A DNA stretch of 53,938 bases, counting the filler, from Bipalium vagum (lineage: Eukaryota): assembly GCA_037834085.1 (NCBI GenBank). It is 3 parts of 3 records of this genome, joined end to end, with 100 filler letters (N's around TTAATTAATTAA, not from the genome) between each part and the next. Parts side by side here need not be neighbours in the genome. Positions count along the whole stretch, not along the records: positions 1 to 15,931 come from JBBMKC010137176.1; 2 more parts are not named here. One strand, written 5' to 3'. The notes under the pieces are model-generated. The model worked only from the letters and a program-made list of their open reading frames with translations, did no database searches and was not told where the DNA came from. Below, one piece after another: positions 1 through 32,612 of the stretch (the stretch's first letter is position 1; the number at the start of each line of letters is the position of its first letter). The position numbers and the translations under genes are program-made.

Positions 1-39
1 TCAATTAATTTTATTGTGGGTAGGTAATTAAATTCATAA

Positions 40-40
<1 letters not shown>

Positions 41-112
<72 letters not shown>
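41..112. repeat. (AAT)n abutting (ATT)n microsatellite, forming a spacerless palindrome
   Basis: Seen directly; centre between 69 and 70. Confidence 0.95.
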
Positions 113-429
113 CCAGTCAAGCATGTTGTGTAGATTTCATGATGTACCCATGATTGCTCCTGATCGACCAGTGGACATCCAAAGTATAAGCGATAAATAT
201 GACTCAAATCTGGTGTGATTGAACGTCACAGTAATGTTGTAGTAAATGGCCCAAAACATAACAGGAAATATCATGATTGTTTCTGTTCATCATGATCAAT
301 GAAATCAGTAATGTAAGATTGTAATTAATGAAATATCAAAAAACAAGAGAACATAGCCCATTGGTGATGTTAGCTTTTATAATAACACATAAACAATCTA
401 TGAACATGAACCCACTTATAATATTTTTT

Positions 430-555
430 CCGCTTTATCTTAGAAACGTGATGTGGTAGAAGAAAACTACAGACAGGTTAGAAATCAGCATCTCAAACTC
501 CAATTACGGCTTCTTTAATTTCATCTCTGGTGAAAATTTGTGTTGTTGACGAGTG
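430..555. mobile_element. Probable Chapaev3 (CMC) transposon terminus
   Basis: Ends ...tgttgttgacgagtg|taa (reverse complement CACTCGTCAACA, flanked by TWA), like recalled Chapaev3 ends. No partner end found. Confidence 0.4.
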
Positions 556-711
556 TAATTAGCAATATATAAAATTTCAAGGATAAAATTGAATAAAGAA
601 TATAAAGAAAAAAATTAAATAATTTAATAAAATTAAGCGAAAATACAAAGAAAATAAATTTTATAATTTTTAAGTAAAATAAATACAGAAAATCAATTTT
701 AAATTACCGGA

Positions 712-1690
712 ATGGGTAGAAAATTGGTTGCGGATAGGGATATCCTCAAGGATATGTCAGCAACAAAAAGAGCCCGGCGTTACAAAAGCCAAAGCGTGGA
801 AGAAATTGAGGATGAAAATTACAACTGTGTTGTGCAAAAAAGAAACCACAATAGAGCATTGAAAATAAATGATATACGAACCAGAGGAAAGACGTTGGCA
901 GAAGAGCACGGTTACCACGAATTTAAGGCATCTTTGCGTTGGTGCAGCTTATTCATGGTACGAAAAAAATTTTCAGTGCGAAGAAGAACAAGAGTAGAAG
1001 AACAAGAGTAACTGCCATGTGATCATTAGCAAAAATTTTTTTCTTTTCGGAAGTTTGTCGAACCTGAAGCTTTAAACATTTCTTCTCACAACTTTGGTGT
1101 CGTATATGAACGGACGGTGGGTGTCAAGGGGCGAGACAATATAAAAATTGACTCTATATTTTATCGTTGTAGTTGGTGTGACTGCTGCTGGTGAAAAACT
1201 CAAGCCTATGCTCATTTTTTAAAAGAAGTTGATGCCAAAAGGCAAATTTCCTGCAAATGTTATTATCAAAACGAATGAAGAAGGTTGGATGAATCAAGAA
1301 CTGATGAAAGAATGGATCACTGAAGTATGGAATCAAAGGCAATATCGCAATTTAGACCCTGGTCGACCTTACTCATTTTAGACTCTGCTCGTTGTCATAT
1401 AACTGACGAAGTAAAGCAGTTCTGTCAACAATACAGAAAAATCGCTGAAATACCAGCTGCTTTGACCAAATTTCTGCAGCCCTTAAACGTAGGTATTAAC
1501 AAACCATTCAAGGATAAATTGAAGGATTGCTGGAAAATGGATTGCAAATGAGGCCCATGCAAATTATGCCAAAAGCGGAATCAGAAAAATAATGAGCTAC
1601 CAAGAAGAAGCAATTTTGGTCAACGAAAGTTTTTCTTCTATCTCCTCTCACTCTATCAAACATAACTTCGAAAAAGCCTTGTGTGACGTC
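712..1690 (+). mobile_element. pogo/POGK-like transposase pseudogene (CENP-B HTH + DDE_1)
   Basis: EFKASLRWCSLFMVRKKFSVRRRT; VTAAGEKLKPMLIF; NEEGWMNQELMKEWI; LLILDSARCH; LTKFLQPLNVGINKPFK; frameshifted. Confidence 0.9.
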
Positions 1691-3476
1691 GAAAATCTAA
1701 AAAACGATTTTTTCAGTAACCGATGATGATTATGTAGAAATTTGAAATTAAATTAAATTATTGTTACTTATGTTGTTGTTCTTTGGTTATATAATCAATT
1801 AAAATATTTTCTATCTTGCAATCAATCTGAAATTATTTAGCAAAATCTTTAGAAATTAAACCGCTCTTATCTATGGAATTTTAGGGTAAATCAATAAATT
1901 TAAAAATAAAGAATTGAAAATCCATGTCAGGGTAATTTAATCCGCTTCTTAAACGAAAAGTTTTGCTGAAATTAAGTGGAATCTTAATGACGCCTTTTGA
2001 TAAAAATTACTGTTGTAATTTGTTATTTGCATTTAATGTAATTTTGAAATGGGTAGATTTTAGTAACTTCTAAATTCCAAACCTAAATATCATGATCAAT
2101 CTTCATGATTAAAAAAATCTGTAATTTGATCTCTTGGATTCAATATTTAATTTGGAACCGGTCTAACCGGAAATTATAAATTTTAAATCATCTTAATTTT
2201 ATTAGGATTTTTTAAAAACGGAAAGAGTTTATTAGGCTGTGGGAAATTTATTGTCGCTTTTCTATATACAAAGACAAATACATTGAAAACAAAAATATAT
2301 AAGGATTTCGATTGATATTTTATAAGTATTGATTTACAATATTAGGATAGGTAAGCCTCTATTGAAAAAAAAATTATTTTATTCTTTTATGTTTGTTTGA
2401 CTAATATAAAACTCAGTATAAATGATAGACATAACGACGCGATTTCGAACATTATATGAAGCTTGTACAAAGCTTCTATTAGCAAATAAGATGCTCAGTG
2501 TTGGTACTAAAGATTTCGTTCTTGAGACATCTATTCAAGACGGGTGTTGTTCATGATATTGATATCACTCATGTAACTGTCCTTATCTAGTCAAATCCTC
2601 ACAATCAATTCGTAAAAAATTAAGAGAAAATGACTAAAATCCGCGTTAATCCATTTGCGCTTCAATTGAACAAAAAGACCAAAAATTCCTAACAACTGCA
2701 CGGACTTTACAGTTTCACAATAGAAACCTCGCTCTTAGTTTATTAAATATTTACAAAACCGATCAATATAAATAAATTATAAAACAAGAAATGTACCAAA
2801 TTTTTTCAAATTTTCTTGGCCCTGGGAGGTTTCTTAACTCTTGAGAAAATATTTCAAAGAAGACGACAAATCGATTTTATTTTGTCCTTTTTCATGTACA
2901 AAATTAATTGTTTTGTTTTATTTTAATTTTAAGAAATATCTAAAAAAACAAAAAACCGAAATATTTTATATTAAATCGATTAAAATTTATCTATTTATTT
3001 TCTCTCCCACATTTTTAAGATTCCCGAAAATATTTTTATCGAATGTGGTTTTGATTGTGGTTTTGCGAAGATGTAATACAGCTTAGATAGTGTAAGAACA
3101 TTAGTTGTGCAAACAGCCAGGCTACGAATGGTCGTTTTTGGTCTGCTGTGGGATCCCACTGCCCATTAAGGAACTTGTTCATAGAAAAATATCATTAACT
3201 AAGCAAACACACTGGAAGATCATAGAGAGTAAACTGAAGAAGGAATGGTCCTCGAGAAAGGATTTTTATATGAATAAATTTTTTTTTCATTAATGATCAT
3301 TATTAATCAATATCAAAAAATCGATATGATTTGTCATACTCTCAATAATCATTATTTAATGTAGCCTTACGAGATAATCAATACATCATTGATTCTAATA
3401 TTTATTGATCAATATTATTTAGTTTGATTAATTAATTACACAAAATGGAAAATTATCAAAAAATCAATGTCGTTAC

Positions 3477-3647
3477 CGTTTGGGAAATCCTCGAATGAGT
3501 GGAAAAGTCGTATATGGGAATTTCGACCTTTTTTCCGTGCTTCAACTGATTCAGAGTGTCAACAATCAAATCAATGTCGAATGCTGCCGGGTGATCAAAG
3601 TTGTAGTTGGAATTTGCAGCCTCGGCTCGTTCTTCGGGACTGAGAAC
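3477..3647 (-). CDS. UCKL1: Uridine-cytidine kinase-like 1, NFDHP exon
   Basis: VLSPEERAEAANSNYNFDHPAAFDIDLIVDTLNQLKHGKKVEIPIYDFSTHSRISQT, 171 nt, phase 0-0; uridine kinase motifs NFDHPxAFD and PxYDFxTH. Acceptor ttcgag|, donor |gtaacg. The next exon was not found inside the window. Confidence 0.95.
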
Positions 3648-5003
3648 CTCGAAACAAAAGAACCATGAACATTTATAGTTTTCAAAGAATTAAATTCTTA
3701 AATTCCTTGTTTTCTTTATCGGTATTACTTTTTAATAACCAATAATTTCCTTTGTGGCCAAAAGAAGCCCAACATTAAAAAATAATTTTTATAATTAAAT
3801 CAATAATGGAAAAAAAATTTCAATTTCGTGAAGAACAGATACCCATGAGGTGAGGGAAACGGAAAAAATTCACAAGCCCAGTTGTTTAATACAGAACTTT
3901 GAAAGGTACGAAAAACTTGAAAATGTCGTTAGCCTCAAAATTTTGTGAAACCTCTTAAAAATGCTTAAGGATAAAGTTCTCTTAATTATTAGAACTGTTG
4001 CTGAAATAAGCTGATGGATACAGAAGAACAGGTCACCTATGTTACATTAATGAATGTGTATGAAGGTAGGACAATCAGGTAATTAGAGGCATTTCCAAGG
4101 CTTAAAATGATTGGTTTCACAGTAATCTTGTGCATAGAATCGAGAAAAAGGCTGTTACGAATTTCAATCGTTGTTCAACCCAATGTGGGCGTTGCCTGAC
4201 AGAGACACTGCCTCAAACAGCCCAATTCCGCAATTTCCCAAATAATCACGATCCAAATACTGGAAAATGGAAAACTTAATAGAATCTCATCAAATTTCAG
4301 TCAAAACATAACAAAAGACGTGCAAAGCATTTCCATTTACTGACAATAAGAAGAAAATATTAATTATGAACGAGAACCCAGAAAAGGGACCTCAACCGTT
4401 AAACATGTATACAATAGAAATAGAAGTCCACAACATGGAAATTTAGAAAAAATTAACTGGAAATGCATAATATTAATAATTATCATTTTTCATAAGTTTA
4501 AATAAAATTTCACTTTTCTTTACTTGTTTTATTAGAAACAATAAGGGGTTTATTAACGGCCAGAGATTTTCTTCAATTTTGAATAAGAAAGTGACTTGTG
4601 GGTCACCTTGTTGATATATATATCTAAACCATAACGAATTATTAAAATGGTGTAAACCTTGAACTAATGTGACGAAATAAAACATGAACTTTATAAAATC
4701 GACGGAAAAACAGTTGAAAATTTAATTTTAATAAGTTATCATTATCATTAATCAATATCTTTATTAATGTTGATTATAATTATTATCATCATGATTATTG
4801 TTATTATCATTATTTTATTAATTATCTATTAACATTATTTAGAGTATTTATTATCTATAATCGACGAGAGAAACGAGAACAGAACTCTTAGGCGTGGACA
4901 CAACAAACAAAATGATCATCATTATCGATGAAATTAATAATTGATTTTTCATTATTGTTATTCCAACCAATTAAATAATAAAATGAGCCGCGTTTATCAT
5001 TAC

Positions 5004-5234
5004 TTTATAAAACGAATCCATGCAAACCAAAGACACCCAGGGAATGTTAAGGTTCTCAATTATTGTCCTGGCCACGGTGGTTTTGCCACTGCCACTGCCA
5101 CCACAAATGCCAATGACAAAGGGCTCCTTCAGTTGACCGTCAGCCGTATACCACGGTGGACGACCGGCCGTATAAATTGTTCGCTTACAGCCGTTGCTTT
5201 CCGTTTTCAGAACGTGATTCAACGACCCAGTTTG
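5004..5234 (-). CDS. UCKL1: Uridine-cytidine kinase-like 1, P-loop exon
   Basis: [13 protein letters not shown]...[40 protein letters not shown] matches the UCKL1-specific [12 protein letters not shown] motif plus Walker A; 231 nt, donor AAA|gtaatg. Confidence 0.95.
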
Positions 5235-5281
5235 CTAGTCAACACAAATTTCACATTTACCGTCAAAGCCAACAAATTTAC

Positions 5282-5336
5282 TCGGTACTGAATGCGTGAT
5301 TTCGCTTTCGACTTCTTCATTTCACCCTTTTCCTCA
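5282..5336 (-). CDS. UCKL1: UCKL1 exon (EEKGEMKKSKAKSRIQYR)
   Basis: Ends CGA|gtaaat; a 47-nt intron (5281-5235, ending gactag) gives a phase-0 in-frame join to the kinase exon. Confidence 0.7.
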
Positions 5337-5380
5337 CTAATTCCGAGATCAAATCAAAAATTCTAATCAACATTTCCTAC

Positions 5381-5394
5381 TTCAATTTTCCCAT
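5381..5394 (-). CDS. UCKL1: UCKL1 putative first coding micro-exon (MGKL/N)
   Basis: ATG GGA AAA TTG AA|gtagga; a 44-nt GT-AG intron (5380-5337) joins it in frame to T GAG GAA AAG GGT GAA ATG AAG. An alternative start is the ATG at 5320. Confidence 0.5.
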
Positions 5395-5779
5395 TTTTAC
5401 AAATTTTGAATTATTTTTTGAACGATTTAAACAAACTCAATTTTGTTGAGATTAACAACTTTCCTTTCTTTTTAATGAAAATCTTTCATGATTGCTTTTA
5501 ATAACTGAAAGTAAAATTTTTGTATTCTAATTTTTAATGTGTTTTTTCCAACTAATTGCTTTTGTTCTTTGCTCAAAATTCCTATTAAATATTAATTATT
5601 AATTTTTACACATAATTTTTAAACTAAAATATCTAAATCATTGAAATCTTTTTCTTGGTTAATTTTAACTCAAATTTAAATATTAATAAAACTTTTGTAA
5701 TACTTTATTTTATTATCTAATAATTTTTTATTATTTAACTATAATGGAAATTACTTATATATATTAATTGGATATTATT

Positions 5780-6315
5780 ATATATAGGAACTGGATATTA
5801 TAAAAGAAAGGCTGAAAAAGAATGCATATCCAGGTAGAAAGATAGAAAAGGTTATCAATGGAACAATTAACAAATTAATAACTGGAAACGAAAATGATGA
5901 AAAGAAAAGTAGAAATAGAAAAGAAGAGTTCAAGAACATAATAAAAATACCATTTTCAAAAGGATTTAGAACATTCAAGAGCATAATAGAAAAAACTGTT
6001 GGGCTTGACGATTTAAAAGTAATTTCAATGACAACAAAAACAAAAAGTTATTTAAAAATTAAAACGCCAACACCTGGATTATTGCAAGCTAATATCATAT
6101 ATGAATTTAAATGTCATTGGTATAATAACCTATACATGTGGGAGACAAAGCGTCACCTCAGAACACGTGTTAGTGAGCATTCGCAATTAAGGAGAACGAG
6201 TAAAGTTTTAGATCATTCTTTGAATGGTGTTGTGCAAAAAGGCAAGGTTAACGCTAAAGAATTTCTAATATATCATATACCGAAAGAAAATCTGGGTAGA
6301 CAATGTTTGCAATAA
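5780..6315 (+). mobile_element. Penelope-like retroelement 3' part (RT thumb + GIY-YIG endonuclease), decayed
   Basis: LKKNAYPGRKIEKVI...IKIPFSKG...NIIYEFKC...LYMWETKRHLRTRVSEH is the PLE GIY-YIG pattern. Confidence 0.85.
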
Positions 6316-7877
6316 AAGAACAGCCGAAAATTACTACGCATAACCTAATGAGACTCTGTTTTGCCACTGTATCACTTTGACAATGTTCGAATTTTGATTT
6401 TTTTATCCGGTTCTCTATACTTAAGCATCAATGAAAAATTGGATGAAAGAATAGATTTTTGAAATCGAAGAAAAAAATTAACACGAAAAGATTGTGACAG
6501 TGACTGATTGCAAGAATTCTCTAATTGAATGTGAAAAGACTGTTTAGAGAAAATTAATTTTCAAAATTGTATTGGGTTTAGTCAAGAGCGCAACTAGAAA
6601 AGGGTTATAAAATTCGCAGAGGGTCCGAGAAAAAATAAAATAATATAAACTATAATCAAGCAATAATAATAAAAATAATTTTTGATAATTCAATTAGAAA
6701 TTGGAGTTTAATTAAGAAGATGACTTTATTTAAGTAAAATCAAGTAGTTCATCAGGTAGTAGTTAGAATTACTAAGAAAATTCAGTATAAAAGAAAAACC
6801 ATTACTCCATAATTATAATCTCCAGAGTTACATTAAAAGACAACTTTTTGAATATTTCACCTCAGAAGATAATTTTCGAAAATAAAGATATTCTTAGGGG
6901 GAAAAGTTAATTTATTTTTGCCTTTTATCTTGAGATCTGGTTATGTTACTTTAGTAAATCTTGGGGCTCAGCTAGTAGTCCGGAGATCAGAAGAGAATAA
7001 AAATAAAGCGACAGATTTATTTATTTTATTTATTCTTTTCCTTTGTTATTTAATAACTTTTAAATCTAATTAGTTGTTGTCGATTTAATAATTGATTGGA
7101 ACCTTATTAATTGAAATTATTATGATCTTGACATTATTGAAATGGAAAATTTAGTGATCGTCTTCATTGCTAACTAAACGTTACATTGACGACTTGATAA
7201 TTGATATCATTGTTATTCTGTGTGTTATTATTATATTATGATATAAATACGTGAAATTGCGTTTTACTGATCTTTGCTGATTACACCAACTAATAGTGTT
7301 CGCAGTCAGATTGATTTAAGTCATCAAATAGTTAAAATTTGGAAAGAAAAATGTAAAATAAAATAATATGAATTTTAAATGAAAAATATTCATATACTTA
7401 TATAAGAGTGAGTAAGATGGGGTGTATTAACCTGGGATTCGCCTCAATTAAAACATCCCAGAGAATTCATCAATGAAGGGGAGCTCCACAACCTCAAGCT
7501 TTCTTTCTTTATTAAACGACAGTGATAGGTCAGAGTGCATCTGGTATTGACGTGTTTATTATCAAAGGGTTTTCTAAAGAAAATTAGTATGGAGCCAACT
7601 TAATGATACCCGACTGCATTTACTTCCAGATCATCAACATTATACAAATAGGAAAGTGAATGAATATCCTAGTCTAAACAACTGGTTTTACCAGTTTTTG
7701 TCAGTGTTACAAACAAAAGTTTAGAATTCCTTATTGTCTCAACGTTTTTATTATCAATAACGTAATCAAATTAAAATTCTCATTAGATTTATAATGAGAT
7801 TATCGAATTTTATACTTCACACTTTATCTTTAATTATGTAATGCTCATCATGTGTTTACGGTTAATTTATCTTTGAA

Positions 7878-8850
7878 CGGGTGACCCATACGTCACTTTC
7901 CAATTAAGAAATTGAATAATAAGCTTTTATTGAAAAATTGATTATTTTTAAAGATTTACGAATTTAATTCTTGGAAAATCGATACTGAAAAAAAGCGACT
8001 AGCAACAAATAAGAGGTATCAAATTCTATTATCAAAACAAGTATTCCATTATTTTAAAACTACGAAAATATAAAAATATTTCAAAATCAGGAAACCACCA
8101 ACAAAACCATTAATAATCACTAATAACAACAATAACCAACAAGAATTTTCTAACAATAGAGTTCTGTTACGGATTTAGAACGACCCGGAGACCAGTTTCA
8201 GTATGATCTCAAAAAATGTTTCTTGGGAACAGCACAGTACTATGGAAGACACTTGATTAACTGGTCAAAGACATCCATAAAACTGAGTTACCAAGAACTT
8301 CATTTTAAGTATACATCCACACAAAATCCAAATAGTTCAAAGTTATAAGTAACAGATAAACTTTGCGATTTTAATCCAAGATCTGGCCAGAAAGAAAATG
8401 GTTCTGTTGAAAAATTTATTATGAGAGATGAATTGCATTTTCACCTGAATGGCTATGTCAATAGGCAAAATACCATCTGGGGATACCTAGAATCCGGGGA
8501 TTATCCAATCAAATAAATTACATTCCCTTAAGATCACAAATTGGTGCGAAAAAGGAAATGCAGTCAGTCACAGACCCCAGATATCTAAAATGGTTGGAAC
8601 ATCTTGTGCACTCAGAAAAAGACTACATATATTGAACTTAGTGGCAACAAGAGAGGATCTTGTTGACATTATCAGAGCAACAATGGAGTTGCTAAGAAAT
8701 TTCTTTGGAAAGCAAATAATTTCTAGAAATTCAGATTTTAAATGGTCTGCTTAACTTAAATGATCGATTTAACAGCACCAGACTTTTTTTGCTTCTAGCT
8801 GAAATACCGATTGTGTTTGTAAACAGCCTCAGAATTATCCCTTTTGAATT
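7878..8850 (+). mobile_element. DD41D (rosa-type) Tc1/mariner remnant
   Basis: RDELHFHLNGYVNRQNTIWG, LHSLKITNWC and DLTAPDFF motifs; gggtg TIR-like start. Confidence 0.7.
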
Positions 8851-8862
8851 ATCCCTTTTAAG

Positions 8863-9131
8863 AAAAATTAAATGAGAAAAAAAATACCGATGGAAATATA
8901 AATTAAAATCCAAAATCCAAAGAAAATAATCATTGGATTAAAGTAGGTCCAAAACCTAATCCAACTTCCTCCAATTAATAAACAACTTGATTTTAAAGAC
9001 GAATCTATTTTAGTACAGCCATCCACTGTTATCAGAGGTTATATTGATCAGACTAGACCCATCCACATCATCAACGTCTGGTAGTTGATAATTTTGTAAC
9101 ACCGCCATTACTTCTTTTCTTCTATACTTAA
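8863..9131. repeat. Direct repeat copy 1 (decayed Tc1/maT-like transposase fragment on - strand)
   Basis: Near-identical to 10251-10442 apart from a ~77-bp segment (8935-9011). The - strand reads YQTLMMWMGLV*SI*PLITVDGCTKID. Confidence 0.85.
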
Positions 9132-9660
9132 CCCGATTAATGAATTACTTTATTAAAGTAGAATGTAAGATGAAAAATCTACTATTATTAACGTTTTATC
9201 AAGACATATTGAAGAAAAAAATGTAACAGAAGGTACCACACAAACTTTACAACTATCAAATAAACCATTTTAAATGAAGTTTAGAGAAACAGAAATTGAT
9301 TTTAATTAAATGATAGTTTATTTATTCAAAATAAAATAAAACGTAAAGAGGTCCAGTTAAAATTCCACAAATGCCTTAAATCCTATACACTTTGCAAAAA
9401 GTATAAATAATAGAACATATTCAAAATATGTAAAAGCAATTAAATATTTTAATACAAATCCACAATTACGCTTATTGGAATTTCAAAATCTATATTCAAT
9501 ATTTTGTTTTCATTTAAAAGGTCAGTCAGAAAATTTATGCTTAAATGAGCTATAGTAAATTTACATTTGTAGATGAAAAACCACCGTAGGAAAAATAAAC
9601 ATTGTTTTATTAAAAACATCAGTTTATGGAATTAAATGTAAAAGGAGAAAATTGTCTTTT
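9121..9660 (+). pseudogene. Decayed double-jelly-roll major capsid protein (C-terminal half), Polinton/Maverick/adintovirus-like
   Basis: Manual translation across stops and frameshifts: LNPINELLY*SRM*DEKSTIINVLSRHIEEK...LSNKPF...NDSLFIQNKIKRKEVQL/NST...TYSKYVKAIKYFNTNPQLRLLEFQNLYSIFCFHLKGQSENL. The motif order fits the recalled animal Polinton-type MCP C-terminus. Confidence 0.65.
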
Positions 9661-9720
9661 TTTTAAAACTAAAACGAAACATGTAGGAGTCAAAGATTCT
9701 ATTTTACATTTTTTAATAAA

Positions 9721-9897
9721 ATGGGAAGTTGTTATTCAAAATCTCTACATCAATATGATGATTAATTTGATAATAATGATATTTTAAAAGAATCAGATTC
9801 TAACTTCTTAAACGTAACCGGAGATATAATGAAAGATGTTACATATATGAATAAAGATAAATGTTCCAAATCTTTTTGGTGGTCTAAATGTTGTTAA
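9721..9897 (+). pseudogene. Small ORF MGSCYS...SKCC (one internal TAA) downstream of the capsid fragment
   Basis: 58 codons in one frame with a single internal stop. Confidence 0.4.
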
Positions 9898-9957
9898 TTT
9901 ACTATTTTTAATGACTTGAAATACGAATTGAAATAAAAGTAACTTAATTTAAAAGAA

Positions 9958-10191
9958 ATGTTAAAACGAAAATTGAAAGAATACTTTTTATTATTGAAAA
10001 TATTAGAAAGCAGGTTTTGAAAACCCTTTGAAAAAGTCGAATCCCAATTAAAAGACATTTCAGATTTATCAAATAGAACATTGTTAAATGAAATACAGAC
10101 AAAGTCTAATTATACTATGGAACCATTAAAAATGTTGATAAACGTTTATCTTCGAAAACGTTGGTTTGAAATAAGCAAAGCTACTTATTAA
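9958..10191 (+). pseudogene. Second small ORF of the viral-like block (one internal TGA)
   Basis: MLKRKLKEYFLLLKILESRF*KPFEKVESQLKDISDL...VYLRKRWFEISKATY*; 77 codons with a single internal stop. Confidence 0.35.
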
Positions 10192-10250
10192 ATGAAGTTG
10201 ATAAATCATAATTTTTACGAAACTTTCCTCACATTTTTTCCTTTTCAAAG

Positions 10251-10442
10251 GAAAATTAATTGAGAAAAGAAATACCGATGAAAATATAAATTAAAATCCA
10301 AAATTCAAAGAAAATAATCATTAGTACAGCCATCCACTGTTATCAGAGGTTATATTGATCAGACCAGACCCATCCACACCATCAACGTCGGGTAGTTGAT
10401 AATTTTGTAACACCGCCATCACTCATTTTCTTCTATACTTAA
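10251..10442. repeat. Direct repeat copy 2
   Basis: Shares aaataccgatg...aataatcatt and agtacagccatccactgttatcagagg...ttctatacttaa with copy 1. Confidence 0.85.
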
Positions 10443-10449
10443 TCAGATT

Positions 10450-10590
10450 TAAATTTAAGTTTCCAATTTCTCCGGAAAGTACTTTTGATTTCCGATTATA
10501 TCTTTTCCAAATTTGTCAAGCCAGTCGTCTGGCGCTTTAAAGGTTTCAATATCTAACTCTGCTGCAATATTAGAAGTTTCTTTTTCATTA
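10450..10590 (-). mobile_element. Tigger/pogo HTH fragment
   Basis: IAAELDIETFKAPDDWLDKF...KVLSGE. Confidence 0.65.
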
Positions 10591-10729
10591 TATTATTTTT
10601 TCATTACTGTTTATTTTATTTATTATTATTATTATTATTATTATCATTATTATTATTATTATCATTTTATTATCATTATTAATGTTATTAGTGTCTAATT
10701 TTTATTATTTTTATTAATATTATTAGTAT

Positions 10730-11322
10730 AAGGAGTGATTCCAACAATCCAGGGTTGGGATAACGATGAGGTGTGGTTTACGTTCACAAGGTATCGTTTG
10801 GCCATACTTCTTCGAAAATGCAGTAACTGGGGAGTGATACCTGGAGAATCTTGAAAATGTTTTTATGGCCTAGAATAACAAGAGGTTATAGATGCTTACA
10901 ACACGATGAGGCACCTGCGCACTATTCGCAAAATATCAGAAACTGGCTAGACCAAAAGTTCCTAAATCTCTGGATTTGAAGACGAGGTTCAATTGAGTGT
11001 CCTTCTCGTTCGCCCGATCTAACTCCGCCAGACTTCTTCTTGTGGGGATATCTAAAACAAAATGAGTACAGAGACAGACCTCATATAATCGCTGAGCTCA
11101 AGGATAAAATACTGGATGCTGGAATGTGCCAGCGAGCATGTCTAAATGTACTGTCTCGATTAAGTCATTTCCCGGCCATGAACGGGCTTCAAATTATTTA
11201 ATTACATATTGCATTTGTTTTTAAACATTCAAATAAAAAAGAATCACCTACTTTATATCTTTATAAAGTTTGTTCAAATATTTAAAATGAAAGTATGCTG
11301 ACATACATAATAAACGCCCTGT
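10730..11322 (+). mobile_element. DD41D Tc1/mariner 3' half
   Basis: LQHDEAPAHY...RRGSIECPSRSPDLTPPDFFLWGYLK; ends cgccctg|ta. Confidence 0.85.
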
Positions 11323-12976
11323 ATATATTTATGCACTGAAGAATGTGGCTTCAATGTTTCTGAAAGGTTCTGAATAATTGAAAACAAAGAAGGGACTAAC
11401 AGACAGTCAGTCAAACTCACGTGCTTTGTCCATTTAATTTATAATTTCACACGGGCATATTATAAAGCATGAACCACACATATTTCCGGTTGAAACCTGT
11501 CTTGTAACTCTCATGTAAAAAATTGTGGTCGTTAGGAATAGCAGGAGGAATGATTGGATTCTGGAAAGACCAAGTCGCTCATCTCTTCAATTGATTCTTT
11601 ATTATAATGAATTGCTCATATATTGAGAGGATCACTCTGCACGTAGACTTCTTTCTATATTTTAGCCTGAGATGTCTGAGGTACTCATTTTACAGTTGGT
11701 GGAACCTACTGACAATTATTGAGCAACCGAGTTAGACAACGAGTCAAAGAAACAGGAGAAAACGAATACTAACGTAAAGGAAAATAAAAATATTTCCAAT
11801 ATCTTCTTACTCCTTTTATTTATATATTTTGGCTTATCTTCTCCGGTTTGCTAATTTTACTGTGAGTATTTAAACAGATTTCGGAAGTTTAATTATTTTT
11901 ATGAAGTGCGCAATATTTAAATTTTGTCTTATCAAATGTAAAATCATAAAATCTCGGTGTGGTCGCCATGCCAATATCAATTGGCGTACCATCAATAAGA
12001 CAAGACATTTTTCGGATAATTTATTAACTGGTAAAACAAATAATATTTGGAAACATTTTCTTCAGACCTGGAAATTCTTTTTTAACTTTAAAAATATGTT
12101 TACCTTTACAATTTCCCTTTTACATATACTTTTTAAATATTTTAATATTTTAAACGTATTATCCAATAGATACACAATTAATTTTAAAAAGAATTAAAAT
12201 AAATAAATAATTAAAAAATTCCTCGGGTCTCATTAGCCTCTTCACAAGAGTTTTGTATTTCATATTAAAATATGGACACATTATATTACTCTATTGACCT
12301 TGTGAAAATTGTTTAAGTATTATCATTATTTTATGTCATCGACCAATGAAATCAGAAGAGTATGTCTAAATTTGTTGAAATGTTGAACCTAATGATCGTC
12401 TGATAAATCGGCTATGAAATTCGACTTCCTTTTTCAGTTATAACTTCTAATGGGGGTTTTTATGCACTTCTTCATTATATTTCATGAATCTTGTAGTGAT
12501 GCCGTAAACCGTTGTTTTTGTAGTCAGTAATGTTTTGTAGTCAGTCTGGCCTTACTGCTCGTCTACCGTATTCTCGAGTCATACCTAAAATTATTGAGTT
12601 TATTTCTCCACATTAATTATAATTATGATTATCGATTAATTGGCTTAGTTAAACAAATAAAAATTAGAAAGATTTTATAAAAATACAATGCTTAATGTAA
12701 CATAAATGTCTCAGACGTATGTATGAATTTAATTCCAATAAAGAGCCTTAATGAACAGCGAAAATATATCCACCGTAGTCAGGACGTTCAGCACTGGTGG
12801 TCATTTCATATAATATTTTAAAATAAAAAGATGAATGACTCCGCCTCGTTTATTTTCTTTGATATTTATGTGAAAGGTACTGTGGCCAGCTGGAACATAA
12901 AAACAGTACAGTATTTAAAGGAAATCCTTTAGATTGAATGGAGACGACAGTTTTAGAAAATGTTTTCTCTTAGTAC

Positions 12977-13089
12977 GCGTTTTGAAAGACCATCATTATT
13001 TATTTTTTTCCCGGTTGAATGGAGAAACAGTCTACGATTCAATTTTTTTATTGAAAATCCACAGCTGTACAGAAGGAACGTGCGATAAT
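12977..13089 (-). CDS. Next coding exon of the same gene (DYRTFLLYSCGFSIKKLNRRLF...)
   Basis: Acceptor tataaag|AT TAT CGC is phase-compatible with the upstream donor, giving PVDYRTFL...KKLNRRL, reminiscent of PDE7 PYIDFRIFH...RNIRRL. Donor CGC|gtacta is uncertain. Confidence 0.45.
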
Positions 13090-13812
13090 CTTTATAAATT
13101 AAAAAGAAGTTTTCTTTAAAATGTTTGATAAAATAATTATTATATGACGACATAAAATAAAACGATAATAAATCTATAAATAGAATGGATGATCAATATT
13201 TTCTTCAATTAATTTCGCTGTTTGATCTGCATGAGACCAAGTCAAATGCTTAAGTAATTTTGAGACCAGTAATATAAATTCCAAGAAGGAATGATGGTAT
13301 TTAGAATGAAGTTAAAGATGTTGCGAACGTTGATCGAAACATATATCGATGATCTTTTAAATGAGAGGTACACCAAAAGAAATGGCTGGCTTCAGACTGG
13401 TGGCAGTGAAATGAAAGAAATTGATGTATGGAGAGTGAGAGTGAGAGAGAGAGAGAACCAAATAGTAAAAAAATGTGCTTTTTCTCGTTTAAATAGATTT
13501 GGTGATGATATTTGCAACGAGAACAGAAATGATATTTGGTTCTATCAAATATTATGCAAAAAAAAATTAATTAAATATAAAAATTAAAAAAATTAACTTT
13601 CTGATTTTATTTTAATTTTATTACAAAAAAATAAAAAAGTATGAAATTTAAATTAAAAATAAAAAATATATTCTTTTAAGAGAACACTGTACGATTCTAA
13701 AACAATTAAATCATTAACATGTATTGAAAATCAATAAGTTTCAACAGGACATTCATTAACACTAATACAATTCTGTAATCGATGATAATAGAAGAAGTAA
13801 TAGCATTTTTAC

Positions 13813-13983
13813 CGACTGGTGATGGTATCTTAGGCGAATCTTTTTCGATTTCATTTGTCAGATCTTTTAGATTCTTTGACTTTCTCCTGCCAACCATACC
13901 ATCTTTCGGTCTGTACAAAGATATATCTCCGACCAATACAATTTCGACTCGTTCATCGTGTAGCACTGTTATCCTTGATATAT
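13813..13983 (-). CDS. Coding exon of unidentified gene, tentatively PDE7-like N-terminal region
   Basis: ttttag|AT ATA TCA...ISRITVLHDERVEIVLVGDISLYRPKDGMVGRRKSKNLKDLTNEIEKDSPKIPSPV G|gtaaaa; 171 nt, phase 1-1, GC-richer than flanks. Possible 16-nt first exon 14048-14033 (MSLNF) via a 49-nt intron. Resemblance to PDE7 (LYIRMLGDVRVR) is weak and from memory. Confidence 0.55.
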
Positions 13984-14659
13984 CTAAAAGTGACAATAAT
14001 AACTCATTAAAACCACAAAAAAAAACGGTTACAAAAATTCAAACTCATTTTCTTATATAATATAAAAATGGTTGCCAAAAAAATATTTTTAAATGTTCTG
14101 CGTTGTTTTAAGATCTGACACACCCTTTACTTTTTTATTTAAATGACATTGAAAATTAAAAGAGAAAAATAAATAAAAAACAAAGATCTACTAAGAATAT
14201 TTTTTGGCAAATATCTTTATTTCACAACTTTTTCTTTTTTTTTCCACAAAAACCTTTTTATTATTTCTGAACACCAATCCCTGTTTTTTGTGAAATTTGT
14301 GATACGGAATTGAAAACGCGACCAATTTCTTTCATCACATTTGAGATCTGAAGATGATAATAAAAAAGATTTGGGAATTTGCTCAATGTTTTACCTCATA
14401 ATTCGGCATTTCTTCAAAGGAAACAGTTTTAAAATAAAAAAAATGAAAGAAAAAAAATTATATAATACAAATAAAAATATTTAGTGACAATTTAATTAAA
14501 ATATTTTAAGTGTAAAACAAAAGTTTATTAAAAAAAATAATAATAAATAAAATATATTAAAAAAAAAGAATTAATTAAAAATATAAAACATAATCATCGA
14601 GAAAAATTAAAAAAAATAAAAATATTAAATGCTAAATATTTTAAAATATTATACATTCC

Positions 14660-14960
14660 ACAATTGTTCTTTGGAAAAGCATGGATCATGTTGCATTGCA
14701 TGCTTAAGGTATCCCTAAATTATTTCGATTGGGTTGACATCCGGAGAATTTCCTGGCCAATCTAGCAAATCAATATTTTTACTTTTAAGGTACTTATACG
14801 TGCTCTATGTAGAGATGCAATGTATAAAGCAGGCCGGTCATCTTCCAATATCTATTGGAATATTTCTACACGAACAAAGTGAGAATGCAAAAAGTCTCCG
14901 TGGACGAAACGATAGAGCTGTTGGCTATTGCCATGGAATTCTCGATGGGTGATTTGCAAA
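14660..14960 (-). mobile_element. Tc1 DDE fragment
   Basis: WPGNSPDVNPIEII*GYL on - strand. Confidence 0.75.
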
Positions 14961-15859
14961 AGCTCTCAATTATAATTGATAATATTGCAAATATCAATAA
15001 AAATAAAAAAAATAATTATAATCAATAACTGACATAATAATAATATATAAAAATAAATAAAACAATAATAAAAATATGGAGAATGGGAATAATAATTAAT
15101 ATATTAATAAAAAAAATTAAAAATATTAATAGAAAAAATAAATATAAAAATAATAAAGGTAAAGAGAATAATATTAAAAGAAATTACGTTAATAGTAATA
15201 ATATAATAAAATTGAAAATAAAAAAATTGTTTTAAAAATTATCTTATGCTTTATACAACTTTGAAAGCCTTGTAACATTTAGCTCGTGATTTTACTGACC
15301 CTTTATACTGGTGAAAATGTCTTCTGACACTTGCAATTTTAGTGATAAAAGATAAAAAAAATATTATATTTGAAGATTTGTTTAAATATTATCTTTAAAT
15401 AAAAAAATTTAAAATTTCCTAATTTTTAAATGGAAAATTATACTGATTGGACGATTTCTGAGTTGTAGACCTGGATTCTTAATTGGTAATGTCAACTGTC
15501 TTCTTAGTCAATTATTTCAGAATTATTATTATATTATTCCATACTCTTTAGTGGGCTTTAAAAATTTGAAGGGATGTGGTTTTGTCCATCGCACCATTTA
15601 TAATCATAATAAAATATTAGAAATTAAATATAGAAAATAAATTGAATAGTAATATTAAAAAAAAAGAAATAATACGAAAAAATAGATTGGTCTACAATCA
15701 CCACACTCTACGCTTTGAGACAGTTAATTCCTTCATTAGCCCATTAATTCTAACTATCTCCATCCCGAGATTAAGGTAGATTAATATTACCAAAAATAGA
15801 TGATTTATGGTCCCGACGACTGGATATAATCCTTGCTGAAATATTTTATTACCAAAATA

Positions 15860-15860
<1 letters not shown>

Positions 15861-15931
<71 letters not shown>
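15861..15931. repeat. (ATT)n microsatellite running into the gap (resumes 16032-16120)
   Basis: Seen directly. Confidence 0.95.
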
Positions 15932-19883: not shown

Positions 19884-21175
19884 TTGTGTTGATTCATAAA
19901 TTCGTGCGTTTTTTCTACATAAACTTTTAAACCAAAGCTTAAATATATTATTTGTTTAAATATTAACATGTTGCACATCATTTGAAAGCTGAGAAAGAGA
20001 TGCGTAAGATACTTTTAATTATATTAGGTTATATGTAGTTTGTGTAGATATATATTTATTCAGAAAAAAAGAATAGATAAATTAGCAATCCATATACTTC
20101 TGAAACATTACTGGAAGCAGAATTTCAGAGCCATAGATGCTGCAAAAAAATATGTGAAGTTGAAGGCGACAATTCAGTGTCTATAAGAACTGATCAAAAT
20201 TGGTTCAAAAAATTCAACAAGGGTGACATGGACCTCAATGATTATCCTGGCAGTGGACGTTCAACCACTGTAGATTCGGAAGCTATTCTCAAAGTCGTAG
20301 AAATGAATCCATCACATAGTACGCGTAGATTATCAGCTGAGACTGGAACATCACAACCATCCGTGGTCGTCATCTATATCAACATAACAGCCGATACAAG
20401 TGCGTTTCAGAAGTACCGCGTCATTTGACGCCAAGTCAAGTTGAACGCCGTTCGATCTGTCATCAATTTTTAAATAATTTAAATGATGAACGCTTTAAAA
20501 GTCGCATAATCACGTGCGATAAAAAATGAATATATTTTTAAATTCCGAATAGGAATAGCAATGATTGGAACCAGGCTAGAAGCCCAAGGCTGTTCCAAAA
20601 CAAGATAGGTTCGGAAAAAAGATCATCTTGTGCGTGTGGTGGAACTTTTATGGGATTATACACTTTGAAGTACTTCCAGATGACCAAACAATTACTGCTA
20701 AGTTATATTCTGATCAATTCGATCGGATTTATCAACAATTAGCCATAAAATATCCTGCTTTGGTCAACAGAAAGCGATTGCTTCCGCAACAGGATAATGT
20801 TCGTTCGCATACTGCGCGAGTAACGCAAAATAAAATTACCCAATTAGTAGGAATTGAAATTTTAACACATCCTTTATTCAGTCCAGATCCAGCACGTAGT
20901 GATTACCATTTTTTCCGACCAATGGCTCATATCCTTAGAGAACGACAGTTTGAGAATTTAGAACAGGTTGAAAATGGATATCGTGAATTTTTCCTTTCCG
21001 AAGATAAAGCATGGTACTGGAGTGGCATCAAAGAACTTGCCCATCGTTGGATTAAGACAGTTGAACATAATGGTCTTTATTTTTCTGAATAAAATTTGTT
21101 TGATTTCTGGATTCTTATCTCTAAAACATGCCTAATATTTTCATTAAAAACGCAAGAACTTATGAATCAACTCAA
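19884..21175 (+). mobile_element. Full-length (1292 bp) defective mariner with TIRs and TA TSD
   Basis: TA|ttgtgttgattcataaattcgtgcgtttt ... aaaacgcaagaacttatgaatcaactcaa|TA; WFKKFNKGD, ITCDKK, CVWWN, QQDN...SPDPARSDYHFFR. Confidence 0.95.
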
Positions 21176-31339: not shown

Positions 31340-32612
31340 TAGGGTGGTGCATTTAAAACGTTCGAAAGTAAAACATCAAAACTCTGGAAAAAACAAATTT
31401 TTTTTATTTATAAAACATGGTCATTAAAATATGGAGATTTATGCAGTATTTAGCTATTTGAATATAATATTGGTAAGATGGCCTTCATTGAGATTTATGC
31501 AAGTTATGCATCTTGCCAAAAAGCTATTCATTACCCCTGTGAGCATTTATTTTTGAATTTTGCGGATTGCATCTCTGATAGCATCTTTTAAGTCTGTGAT
31601 GTTTTGAGGGCTGTTTTGATAGACCATGATTTTGCAATAGCCCCACAAAAAGAAATCAGGAGCTGTCAAGTCTGGCGATCTGGAGAGCCATCTAAATTTG
31701 GCATTCCGCGAGAGGATGCGATCAGAGAAAATCGTCATCAAGTATTCCATGACAATTTTCTTGATGTGTGGTGTTGCTCCATCTTGTTGAAAACATATCG
31801 AACGAATAGATATACTACGCTGCGAATATATAAAACTGCTGTAATTTCTCCAAATAACTCTGCAGAGTGACATTTGCACTTTTGCCTTGCATTTCAAAGA
31901 AATAAATACCAATAACACATTTGGACGATACTGCACACCATACAGTTACTCGACCTGTGTGTTATTTTTTTCGTGGATTATGCTTTGGGTTTTGATCTGC
32001 CCAAAAATAAAAATTTTGCTTTCCGTTAAGATCAAAATGTGCCTCACTAAACACGAACAAACGGTTTAACAAGGTCCCATTCTCTTACACAATACTGATC
32101 ATCTTTTCGCAGAACTGGAGACGCAAACTGTAGTCAGTTTGCTCTAATTTACTCACTATTTGCATTTTGTATCGAAATAAATGCAAATCATCATTTAAAA
32201 TGCGTTAAACACTTCTGCTGATATTGAGTTGACAAGACAGTCTGCGTGTTGATAATTTCGGATTGGTTTCAATTGCCGCGGCTACTGCAGTGATGTTCGT
32301 ATAGGACAATTTCTATTTATTGGCATAACATAAATATTACCCTCAAGTTCGAAATGATTAATGACACGTCAAATGGTTGTTGTACTCGGTATTTCCATTT
32401 ATATTCCCGTTTGAGTGCTCGCTAGACCAAAATTGGAGAATGGAATTCATAAAACAATTTAATTATTTTAATGTTGATTTCTGGATCCATAATTATAATG
32501 ATTTAAATTTCCACACTGTAATTATAACAAAATGAAACATTAAAACAAATATGCCTGCATTGGAATGAAGTTATCAATTAGTACTTTCGAACGTTTTAAA
32601 TGCGCCACCATA
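31340..32612 (-). mobile_element. Defective DD41D (rosa-type) element with TIRs
   Basis: ggtggtgcatttaaaacgttcgaaagta at one end and its near-exact reverse complement at the other; QQDGATPH...RSPDLTAPDFFLWG with 41 residues between the last two catalytic D. Confidence 0.92.

What the first reader, a model, noticed from the sequence alone, without database searches (positions are those of the whole stretch)
9121..9660. Endogenous Polinton/adintovirus-like major capsid fossil missed by the ORF track
Seen: a stop- and frameshift-broken frame reading LNPINE..., NVLSR, LSNKP, NDSLFIQ, EVQL/NS, YSKYVKAIKYFNTNPQLRLLEFQNLYSIFCFHLKGQSENL. Established (recalled): animal Polinton/Maverick (adintovirus-type) double-jelly-roll capsids end with this motif order (N.S.F, .QLN..YP, Y..Y, EF..LY.IF.FD...Q.E.L). 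Inference: this is a relic of an integrated dsDNA virus or virus-like transposon in the host germ line, and intact relatives may exist elsewhere in the genome.
Basis: partly seen in the sequence, partly recalled or inferred. Interest (0 to 1): 0.7.

Follow-up and report, generated by a model that had tools for sequence, protein, structure and literature searches.

The report
Decayed Polinton virus capsid gene fossil
This is the broken back half of the shell-protein gene of a Polinton/Maverick DNA virus, a likely inert old copy among at least 150 relics in the genome of a likely invertebrate host; the kind is well known, but this family joins a phospholipase-like domain to its integrase and appears to have swapped among three DNA polymerases.

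Summary
Confirmed. All quoted motifs are present. A profile of outside relatives scores 9124-9657 at 69 bits (best of 200 shuffles: 7), and the fragment, read with X at stops, folds like the second jelly roll of double-jelly-roll capsids. The relic runs about 9127-10130 (capsid back half plus the start of a fibre-like gene), has no element ends, and lies between two 94%-identical copies of host repeat DNA. It belongs to an old subfamily of a large family (at least 150 matches, probably thousands). Other copies supply A32 ATPase, a penton-like gene, an adenain-like protease, rve integrase, pPolB, terminal inverted repeats and a 6-bp target duplication, so this is a Polinton/Maverick. No full-length stop-free capsid gene was among the 51 best matches. 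Three features go beyond the textbook. The integrase has a PLA2-like domain in front and no chromodomain. The termini start ACAC and fold back on themselves. Capsid genes 92-95% identical sit beside different polymerase classes, three in all. Polymerase swapping is already in print; I found no paper describing the PLA2-integrase fusion, though it is common in databases.

The parts
9127..9679 (+). Relic of the C-terminal half (second jelly roll) of a Polinton major capsid gene. Broken by 3-7 stops in homologous codons, short deletions near 9255-9280, frameshifts near 9305, 9345, 9360 and 9545, and further indels at 9565-9615.
9700..10132 (+). Same element, 3' of the capsid: decayed start of a fibre-like gene (label partly recalled; weak T7 tail-fibre Pfam hit, E 0.01, on a family copy). 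This order is shared with other copies of the window's old subfamily.
   Evidence: tblastn 9799-9861 E 1e-5; blastn to L032, L034, L073, L083 out to 10118-10132
8827..9138 (.). Left copy of a direct repeat that brackets the relic, with two insertions relative to the right copy. It overlaps the capsid start by a 5-base microhomology at 9127-9131.
10227..10449 (.). Right copy of the direct repeat (93-94% identical). It continues to about 10600 as a dispersed host repeat resembling a pogo/Tigger transposase relic on the minus strand (resemblance recalled; no Pfam hit).

Best explanation
The stretch is a stop- and frameshift-broken back half of the double-jelly-roll capsid gene of an integrated Polinton/Maverick element, and it is likely an inert fossil that makes no protein. 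SHOWN: capsid homology and predicted fold; the family's gene order (small ORF > PLA2-rve integrase > ORF > adenain-like protease > fibre-like > two ORFs > penton-like > A32 ATPase > capsid, converging on pPolB); TIRs; one 6-bp TSD; placement of the window copy in an old, long-branched subfamily; absence of element ends in the window. INFERRED from known Polinton biology: the parent inserted through its rve integrase, copied itself with a protein-primed polymerase from the TIRs, and could package its DNA in an icosahedral particle. INFERRED for this copy: both ends were later lost in a microhomology-mediated local duplication or rearrangement, and it has since decayed without selection. INFERRED for the family: recombination near gene boundaries 3' of the capsid repeatedly exchanged the polymerase module among three classes.
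For: Capsid identity: open-frame own-genome copies hit PF21738 (L004 E 1e-18), and 69 of 76 aligned relatives do. The model of natural relative P0002 (pLDDT 78) matches SGIV, PBCV-1, mavirus and Sputnik capsids at E 1e-14 to 1e-12. The window frame with X at stops folds at pLDDT 84. Its top 12 of 48,161 chains are all double-jelly-roll capsid or scaffold proteins, 11 of them through the C-terminal roll (Z 5.8-8.0, rmsd 3.0-5.8, 101-154 aligned). Family genes: Pox_A32, rve E 2e-15, pPolB, protease H/D/Q/C motifs. TIR motif: 401 hits versus 11 for the control. L116 is a 4433-bp deleted copy with about 120-bp TIRs and a 6-bp TSD. Selection and decay: dN/dS 0.21-0.72 in 28 pairs of open-frame copies, showing past purifying selection; changes private to the window fall 19/113, 13/133 and 14/103 on codon positions 1-3 (chi-square p 0.26). 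Window branch 0.23 versus median 0.051. One 1327-nt contig of run X1 spans 9024-10350 with no differences at flank-like depth (probably the source data, so not independent).
Against: Integrase, polymerase, TIR and TSD are not in the window. They are tied to it through relatives about 75% identical in DNA. The one TSD-bearing copy carries no capsid gene; it links through the shared integrase and TIR (L050 holds TIR, polymerase, capsid, penton-like and protease pieces in one locus). The protease call is weak (Pfam C5 E 0.04, below cut-off) and so is the penton call (Atlas lead only). The fold of the window frame is driven by its 76-row alignment, and Z 8 alone is only middling. Window-versus-copy dN/dS is still 0.37-0.84, not 1, because it includes the selected history. 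No single X1 contig bridges capsid and polymerase in L152, so the polymerase pairings rest on one fragmented assembly.
Confidence: 0.9

Rival explanations
1. The relic is not inert but serves the host, for example as a piRNA or antisense source against the family, or as regulatory DNA.
For: It sits in a cluster of transposon relics. PIWI control of transposons in invertebrates is established (search listing).
Against: Private changes show no codon bias and indels are many. Nothing in the sequence marks it out from other copies.
Confidence: 0.05
2. The capsid comes from another double-jelly-roll virus (polinton-like virus, virophage or giant virus) rather than from a Polinton with rve integrase and pPolB.
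For: The best structural matches are giant-virus and virophage capsids. The nearest relatives are unnamed environmental proteins.
Against: Structural identity to those is only 3-14%, which reflects what has been solved. Own-genome copies sit directly beside rve integrase, pPolB, ATPase and TIRs.
Confidence: 0.02
3. The stretch is foreign DNA (a free virus or contaminant) or an assembly chimera.
For: The assembly is fragmented (272,664 contigs) and seems to hold a second, GC-richer Maverick type that may be foreign.
Against: Many stops and frameshifts; host-repeat flanks; flank-like depth across both joints; at least 150 diverged copies.
Confidence: 0.02
4. Family level only: the capsid-polymerase mixing is an artefact of mis-joined contigs or of recombination between dead copies, not exchange between replicating elements.
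For: Short-read, high-copy repeat. L152 is tiled only by 100-338-nt pieces between capsid and polymerase. L139 is truncated right at the join.
Against: The switches seen fall in the intergenic stretch after the capsid stop or after the HNH gene. One Beta subtype recurs with three capsid clades (L038/L050, L134/L139, L152), and the third class also with three (L015, L046, L047/L003). The same exchange is published for nematode Polintons.
Confidence: 0.3

Closest known systems
Polinton/Maverick elements (polintoviruses; Krupovic et al. 2014, PMC4028283; Barreat and Katzourakis 2021, PMC8097293)
   Same: DJR major capsid, penton-like gene upstream, A32 ATPase, adenain-like protease, rve integrase, pPolB, TIRs, 6-bp TSD; most copies are degraded fossils.
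   Different: Termini begin ACAC, not (AG)3 or (AGT)2 as given for vertebrates, and each end carries an inner inverted copy that folds back (z -8.3). Copy number is at least 150 and probably of order a thousand, against a vertebrate mean of 22 and maximum of 287.
Adintoviruses / MELD viruses (Starrett et al. 2021, PMC8502044; Buck et al. 2024, PMC11071296)
   Same: Alpha- and Beta-type PolB both occur; a parvovirus-like PLA2 domain is present; mixed hexon/PolB pairings are described. The Trichoplax MELD virus integrase is 47% identical over 72% of the family integrase.
   Different: PLA2 there is a separate PLA2X gene and the integrase ends in a chromodomain. Here PLA2 and rve are one frame with no chromodomain, and a third polymerase class occurs.
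Nematode Polintons with pPolB1/pPolB2 exchange (Jeong et al. 2023, 10.1101/2023.08.22.554363)
   Same: Near-identical capsid modules are paired with unrelated polymerases inside one host genome.
   Different: Two classes there and intact elements; here three classes (and two Beta subtypes) among decayed copies.
Spodoptera frugiperda Mavericks (PMC5803895)
   Same: Invertebrate Mavericks with a PLA2 domain and rve integrase.
   Different: PLA2 lies on a separate small ORF (CAP), and the integrase has a chromodomain.

Membership tests
Polinton/Maverick | Double-jelly-roll major capsid (PY) | tested here: met
Polinton/Maverick | rve integrase in the element | tested here: met
   In family copies (PF00665 E 7e-9 in L051, which also holds the capsid); absent from the window relic
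Polinton/Maverick | Protein-primed PolB | tested here: met
   31 of 84 capsid copies have a classed convergent pPolB piece within 6.5 kb; absent from the window relic
Polinton/Maverick | A32/FtsK packaging ATPase | tested here: met
   Pox_A32 above cut-off in L007 and L017, directly upstream of the capsid
Polinton/Maverick | Adenain-like cysteine protease | tested here: inconclusive
   H, D, Q, C motifs in order; Pfam C5 E 0.04, below cut-off; tblastn E 2e-4 from a C5-positive protease
Polinton/Maverick | Minor capsid (penton) | tested here: inconclusive
   Conserved ORF upstream of the ATPase; no relevant Pfam hit; Atlas cluster with 18% Adeno_Penton_B at 0.96 is a lead only
Polinton/Maverick | TIRs and 6-bp TSD | tested here: met
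   Shared termini upstream of integrase and of polymerase. TSD seen in the 1 copy found with both ends (L116). None in the window.
Adintovirus (strict sense) | Integrase with C-terminal chromodomain | tested here: not met
   No PF00385 on the 424-aa frame of L098; L093 ends at the same place
Adintovirus (strict sense) | Hexon recognisable by BLASTp against the Mayetiola or Terrapene reference | not testable with these tools
   Reference sequences were not held; BFVD adintovirus and MELD hits are 10-14% identical, at fold level only
Adintovirus (strict sense) | PolB with N-terminal OTU domain | not tested
   No OTU hit appeared in Pfam scans of polymerase pieces, but N-termini were not examined specifically

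The most novel reading that the evidence does not exclude
The fossil marks an undescribed, widespread lineage of invertebrate polintoviruses in which a parvovirus-type phospholipase is fused to the integrase, so the integrase would travel in the particle and help the genome cross the endosome. Its foldback termini resemble parvovirus or bidnavirus ends, and its capsid module swapped among three polymerase classes while reaching thousands of copies in one germ line.
Probability: 0.3. Interest if true: 0.65.

Novelty: new variant of a known kind. Interest (0 to 1): 0.4.

Why it matters
The fragment itself is an ordinary viral fossil. The family behind it is a dense record, within one genome, of how Polintons shuffle modules: a capsid tree can be laid against three polymerase classes. 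The PLA2-integrase fusion, common in databases but not found in my literature searches, gives a testable handle on the open question of whether Polintons form infectious particles, since a membrane-penetration domain on the integrase makes most sense if the integrase is packaged.

Tried and rejected
Pfam on the window fragment gave no hit. A sequence search of the PDB with the family profile found nothing real. A first TIR pattern gave 0 hits because I mis-spaced it; the shorter pattern worked. A genome search for Peptidase_C5 found only a different, GC-richer Maverick type. Cluster look-ups gave no informative names (20 of 20 proteins unnamed or hypothetical). Pfam could not confirm the flanking transposase relics. 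No RNA holder was listed for the window, which says nothing on expression. Earlier scan findings: nothing by sequence, by place or for the fusion words; 8 unrelated notes shown. Kapitonov and Jurka 2006 is not held, so whether AC termini or foldback ends were described there is unchecked. I rejected the idea that the PLA2-rve fusion is peculiar to this genome: 48 of the best 120 outside hits carry both PLA2 motifs and the rve motif. I guessed a flatworm host, and literature searches did not settle it; only 'invertebrate animal' is argued, from an innexin gene beside one copy.

Full report
OBSERVATION. The window is a pack of three stretches; the finding lies in the first (1-15931, GC 0.29), which is G000 contig C137176 at the same coordinates. 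Two blocks share one frame (9127-9270 and about 9361-9546) and NDSLFIQ/EVQL lie in another. The fragment alone hits no Pfam family. A profile from 16 full-length outside relatives scores it 69 bits against a best of 7 for 200 shuffles, and a profile from 73 distant relatives scores it 25 against 7.

WHAT THE PROTEIN IS. Own-genome copies with open frames hit PF21738, the double-jelly-roll-like domain (E down to 1e-18). Twelve outside proteins were found (37-57% identical), and 1909 representatives at E up to 0.001; the 20 looked up are unnamed or hypothetical. The model of natural relative P0002 (pLDDT 78, pTM 0.82) matches iridovirus, chlorovirus, mavirus and Sputnik capsids and viral capsid models. 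The window frame with X at stops, folded on a 76-row alignment, gives pLDDT 84. Its top 12 matches among 48,161 chains are double-jelly-roll proteins, 11 through the C-terminal roll (Z 5.8-8.0). That model leans on the alignment, and these Z values alone would be middling.

THE FAMILY. Genome searches gave 1052 first-look candidates by DNA (40 scored, 43 matches; capsid-spanning ones 72-77% identical), 1715 by P0001 (150 scored, 151 matches) and 3612 by P0002 (101 scored). Candidates are not copy numbers: at least 150 copies are shown, and of order a thousand are likely. None of the 51 matches at E up to 1e-60 is both full length and free of stops. Mapping natural ORFs over the fetched loci gives this order: small ORF > PLA2-rve integrase > ORF > adenain-like protease > fibre-like gene > two ORFs > penton-like gene > A32 ATPase > capsid, converging on an optional HNH-like ORF (label recalled) and pPolB. 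No one locus holds all of it. Sequence shared between the regions upstream of integrase and upstream of polymerase defines TIRs that start ACACAAAG; the motif occurs 401 times against 11 for the control. One 4433-bp deleted copy has both TIRs and a 6-bp target duplication. TIRs typically hold an inner inverted copy of the terminus 100-250 bp in, and one folds at -36 kcal/mol, z -8.3, 0 of 200 shuffles as good. These are the Polinton/Maverick hallmarks (PMC4028283, passages; PMC8097293, passages). An innexin gene beside one copy points to an invertebrate host.

THE WINDOW COPY. Family homology runs from about 9127 to 10130 and includes the start of a fibre-like gene. There is no TIR in the window and no other convincing element gene in stretch 1 (one marginal ATPase match at E 0.014). 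In a tree of 79 capsid segments (5 of 84 dropped as under 440 nt) the window falls in a 6-member group (support 96/95) with terminal branches 0.14-0.23 against a median of 0.051; 4 of the 6, the window included, have the fibre-like gene directly 3'. The bootstrap had not fully settled. The relic lies between two copies of a host repeat, 8827-9138 and 10227-10449, 93-94% alike, with a 5-base microhomology at the left joint. I infer a microhomology-mediated rearrangement younger than the insertion. dN/dS is 0.21-0.72 in 28 pairs of open-frame copies and 0.37-0.84 for the window against 8 of them. Changes private to the window are spread evenly over codon positions (19/113, 13/133, 14/103; p 0.26), as expected of neutral decay. 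A single contig of run X1 spans 9024-10350 without differences at depth 28 versus 26 on the flank; X1 is probably the source data.

BEYOND THE TEXTBOOK, 1: PLA2-INTEGRASE FUSION. PLA2 and rve lie in one frame in many copies (PLA2 hits are below Pfam's cut-off, best E 3e-4), with no chromodomain. The fusion is common outside: 48 of the best 120 hits carry both PLA2 motifs and the rve motif, including a coral protein. In print I found PLA2 only as a separate gene (PMC8502044, passages and one cut supplementary file; PMC5803895, passages; PMC3671162, passages). Searches for the fusion showed no description, but Repbase, subscription papers and unseen supplementary maps may contain one.

BEYOND THE TEXTBOOK, 2: THREE POLYMERASE CLASSES. 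Of 84 capsid copies from 89 contigs plus the window, 17 face a Beta-type pPolB, 10 an Alpha-type, 4 a third type and 1 an unclassed N-terminus; 52 show none in the DNA held. These loci were chosen by likeness to the window. The third type has one outside relative, a PF03175 polymerase. Capsids 92-95% identical face different classes (L152 with L160 or L145; L134 with L054; L139 with L127), while L152 and L038 share 93%-identical polymerase DNA beside 75%-identical capsids. The switches seen fall between genes. No contig of X1 bridges capsid to polymerase in L152, so mis-assembly is not excluded. Such exchange is published for nematodes (10.1101/2023.08.22.554363, passages) and as AB/BA pairings (PMC11071296, passages; PMC8502044). 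Large expansions are known in corals (PMC11131425, passages). PMC6431247 was read in passages for background. Kapitonov and Jurka 2006 was not available, and the replication model cited from it is recalled.

VERDICT. The locus is an inert fossil of a known class. Its family is a variant with a PLA2-fused, chromodomain-less integrase, foldback ACAC termini and three polymerase partners. It works like a Polinton and meets the main membership tests at family level; strict adintovirus membership is not met on the chromodomain and untested on hexon and OTU. Interest 0.4.

Noticed in passing
L104, L105, L107, L108 (GC 0.39-0.44) and L057 (GC 0.35): A second Maverick type with capsid directly followed by a C5-positive protease, only about 21% identical to this family's capsid and richer in GC than family loci (0.20-0.25). 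It may be a younger family or foreign DNA in the assembly.
   Followed up: partly
L116:3857-8289: Internally deleted 4433-bp element with both TIRs (about 93% alike), a 6-bp TSD, the integrase and part of an Alpha-type polymerase, but no capsid genes.
   Followed up: yes
L012, L018, L019, L020, L023, L028, just 3' of the capsid: A young subfamily has an unassigned convergent ORF with a helix-turn-helix look in place of the HNH or polymerase end.
   Followed up: no
window 5788-6315 (+): 175-aa frame resembling the GIY-YIG end of a Penelope-like retroelement (resemblance recalled; no Pfam hit).
   Followed up: no
window 703-1011, 20081-21092, 8300-8830, 10720-11200, 31547-31945: Tc5/pogo HTH (PF03221, E 8e-4), Mos1-like mariner (PF17906, PF01359) and Tc1-like transposase relics (the last three by recalled motif only).
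   Followed up: no
L026:2109-2774 (-): Uninterrupted BAR plus SH3 frame (endophilin-like) close to a capsid copy; a host exon or retrocopy.
   Followed up: no
L031:603-1484, L035:1558-2900: Related AT-rich frames of 110-280 aa in two loci, not scanned against any family library; possibly a lineage-specific host gene family.
   Followed up: no
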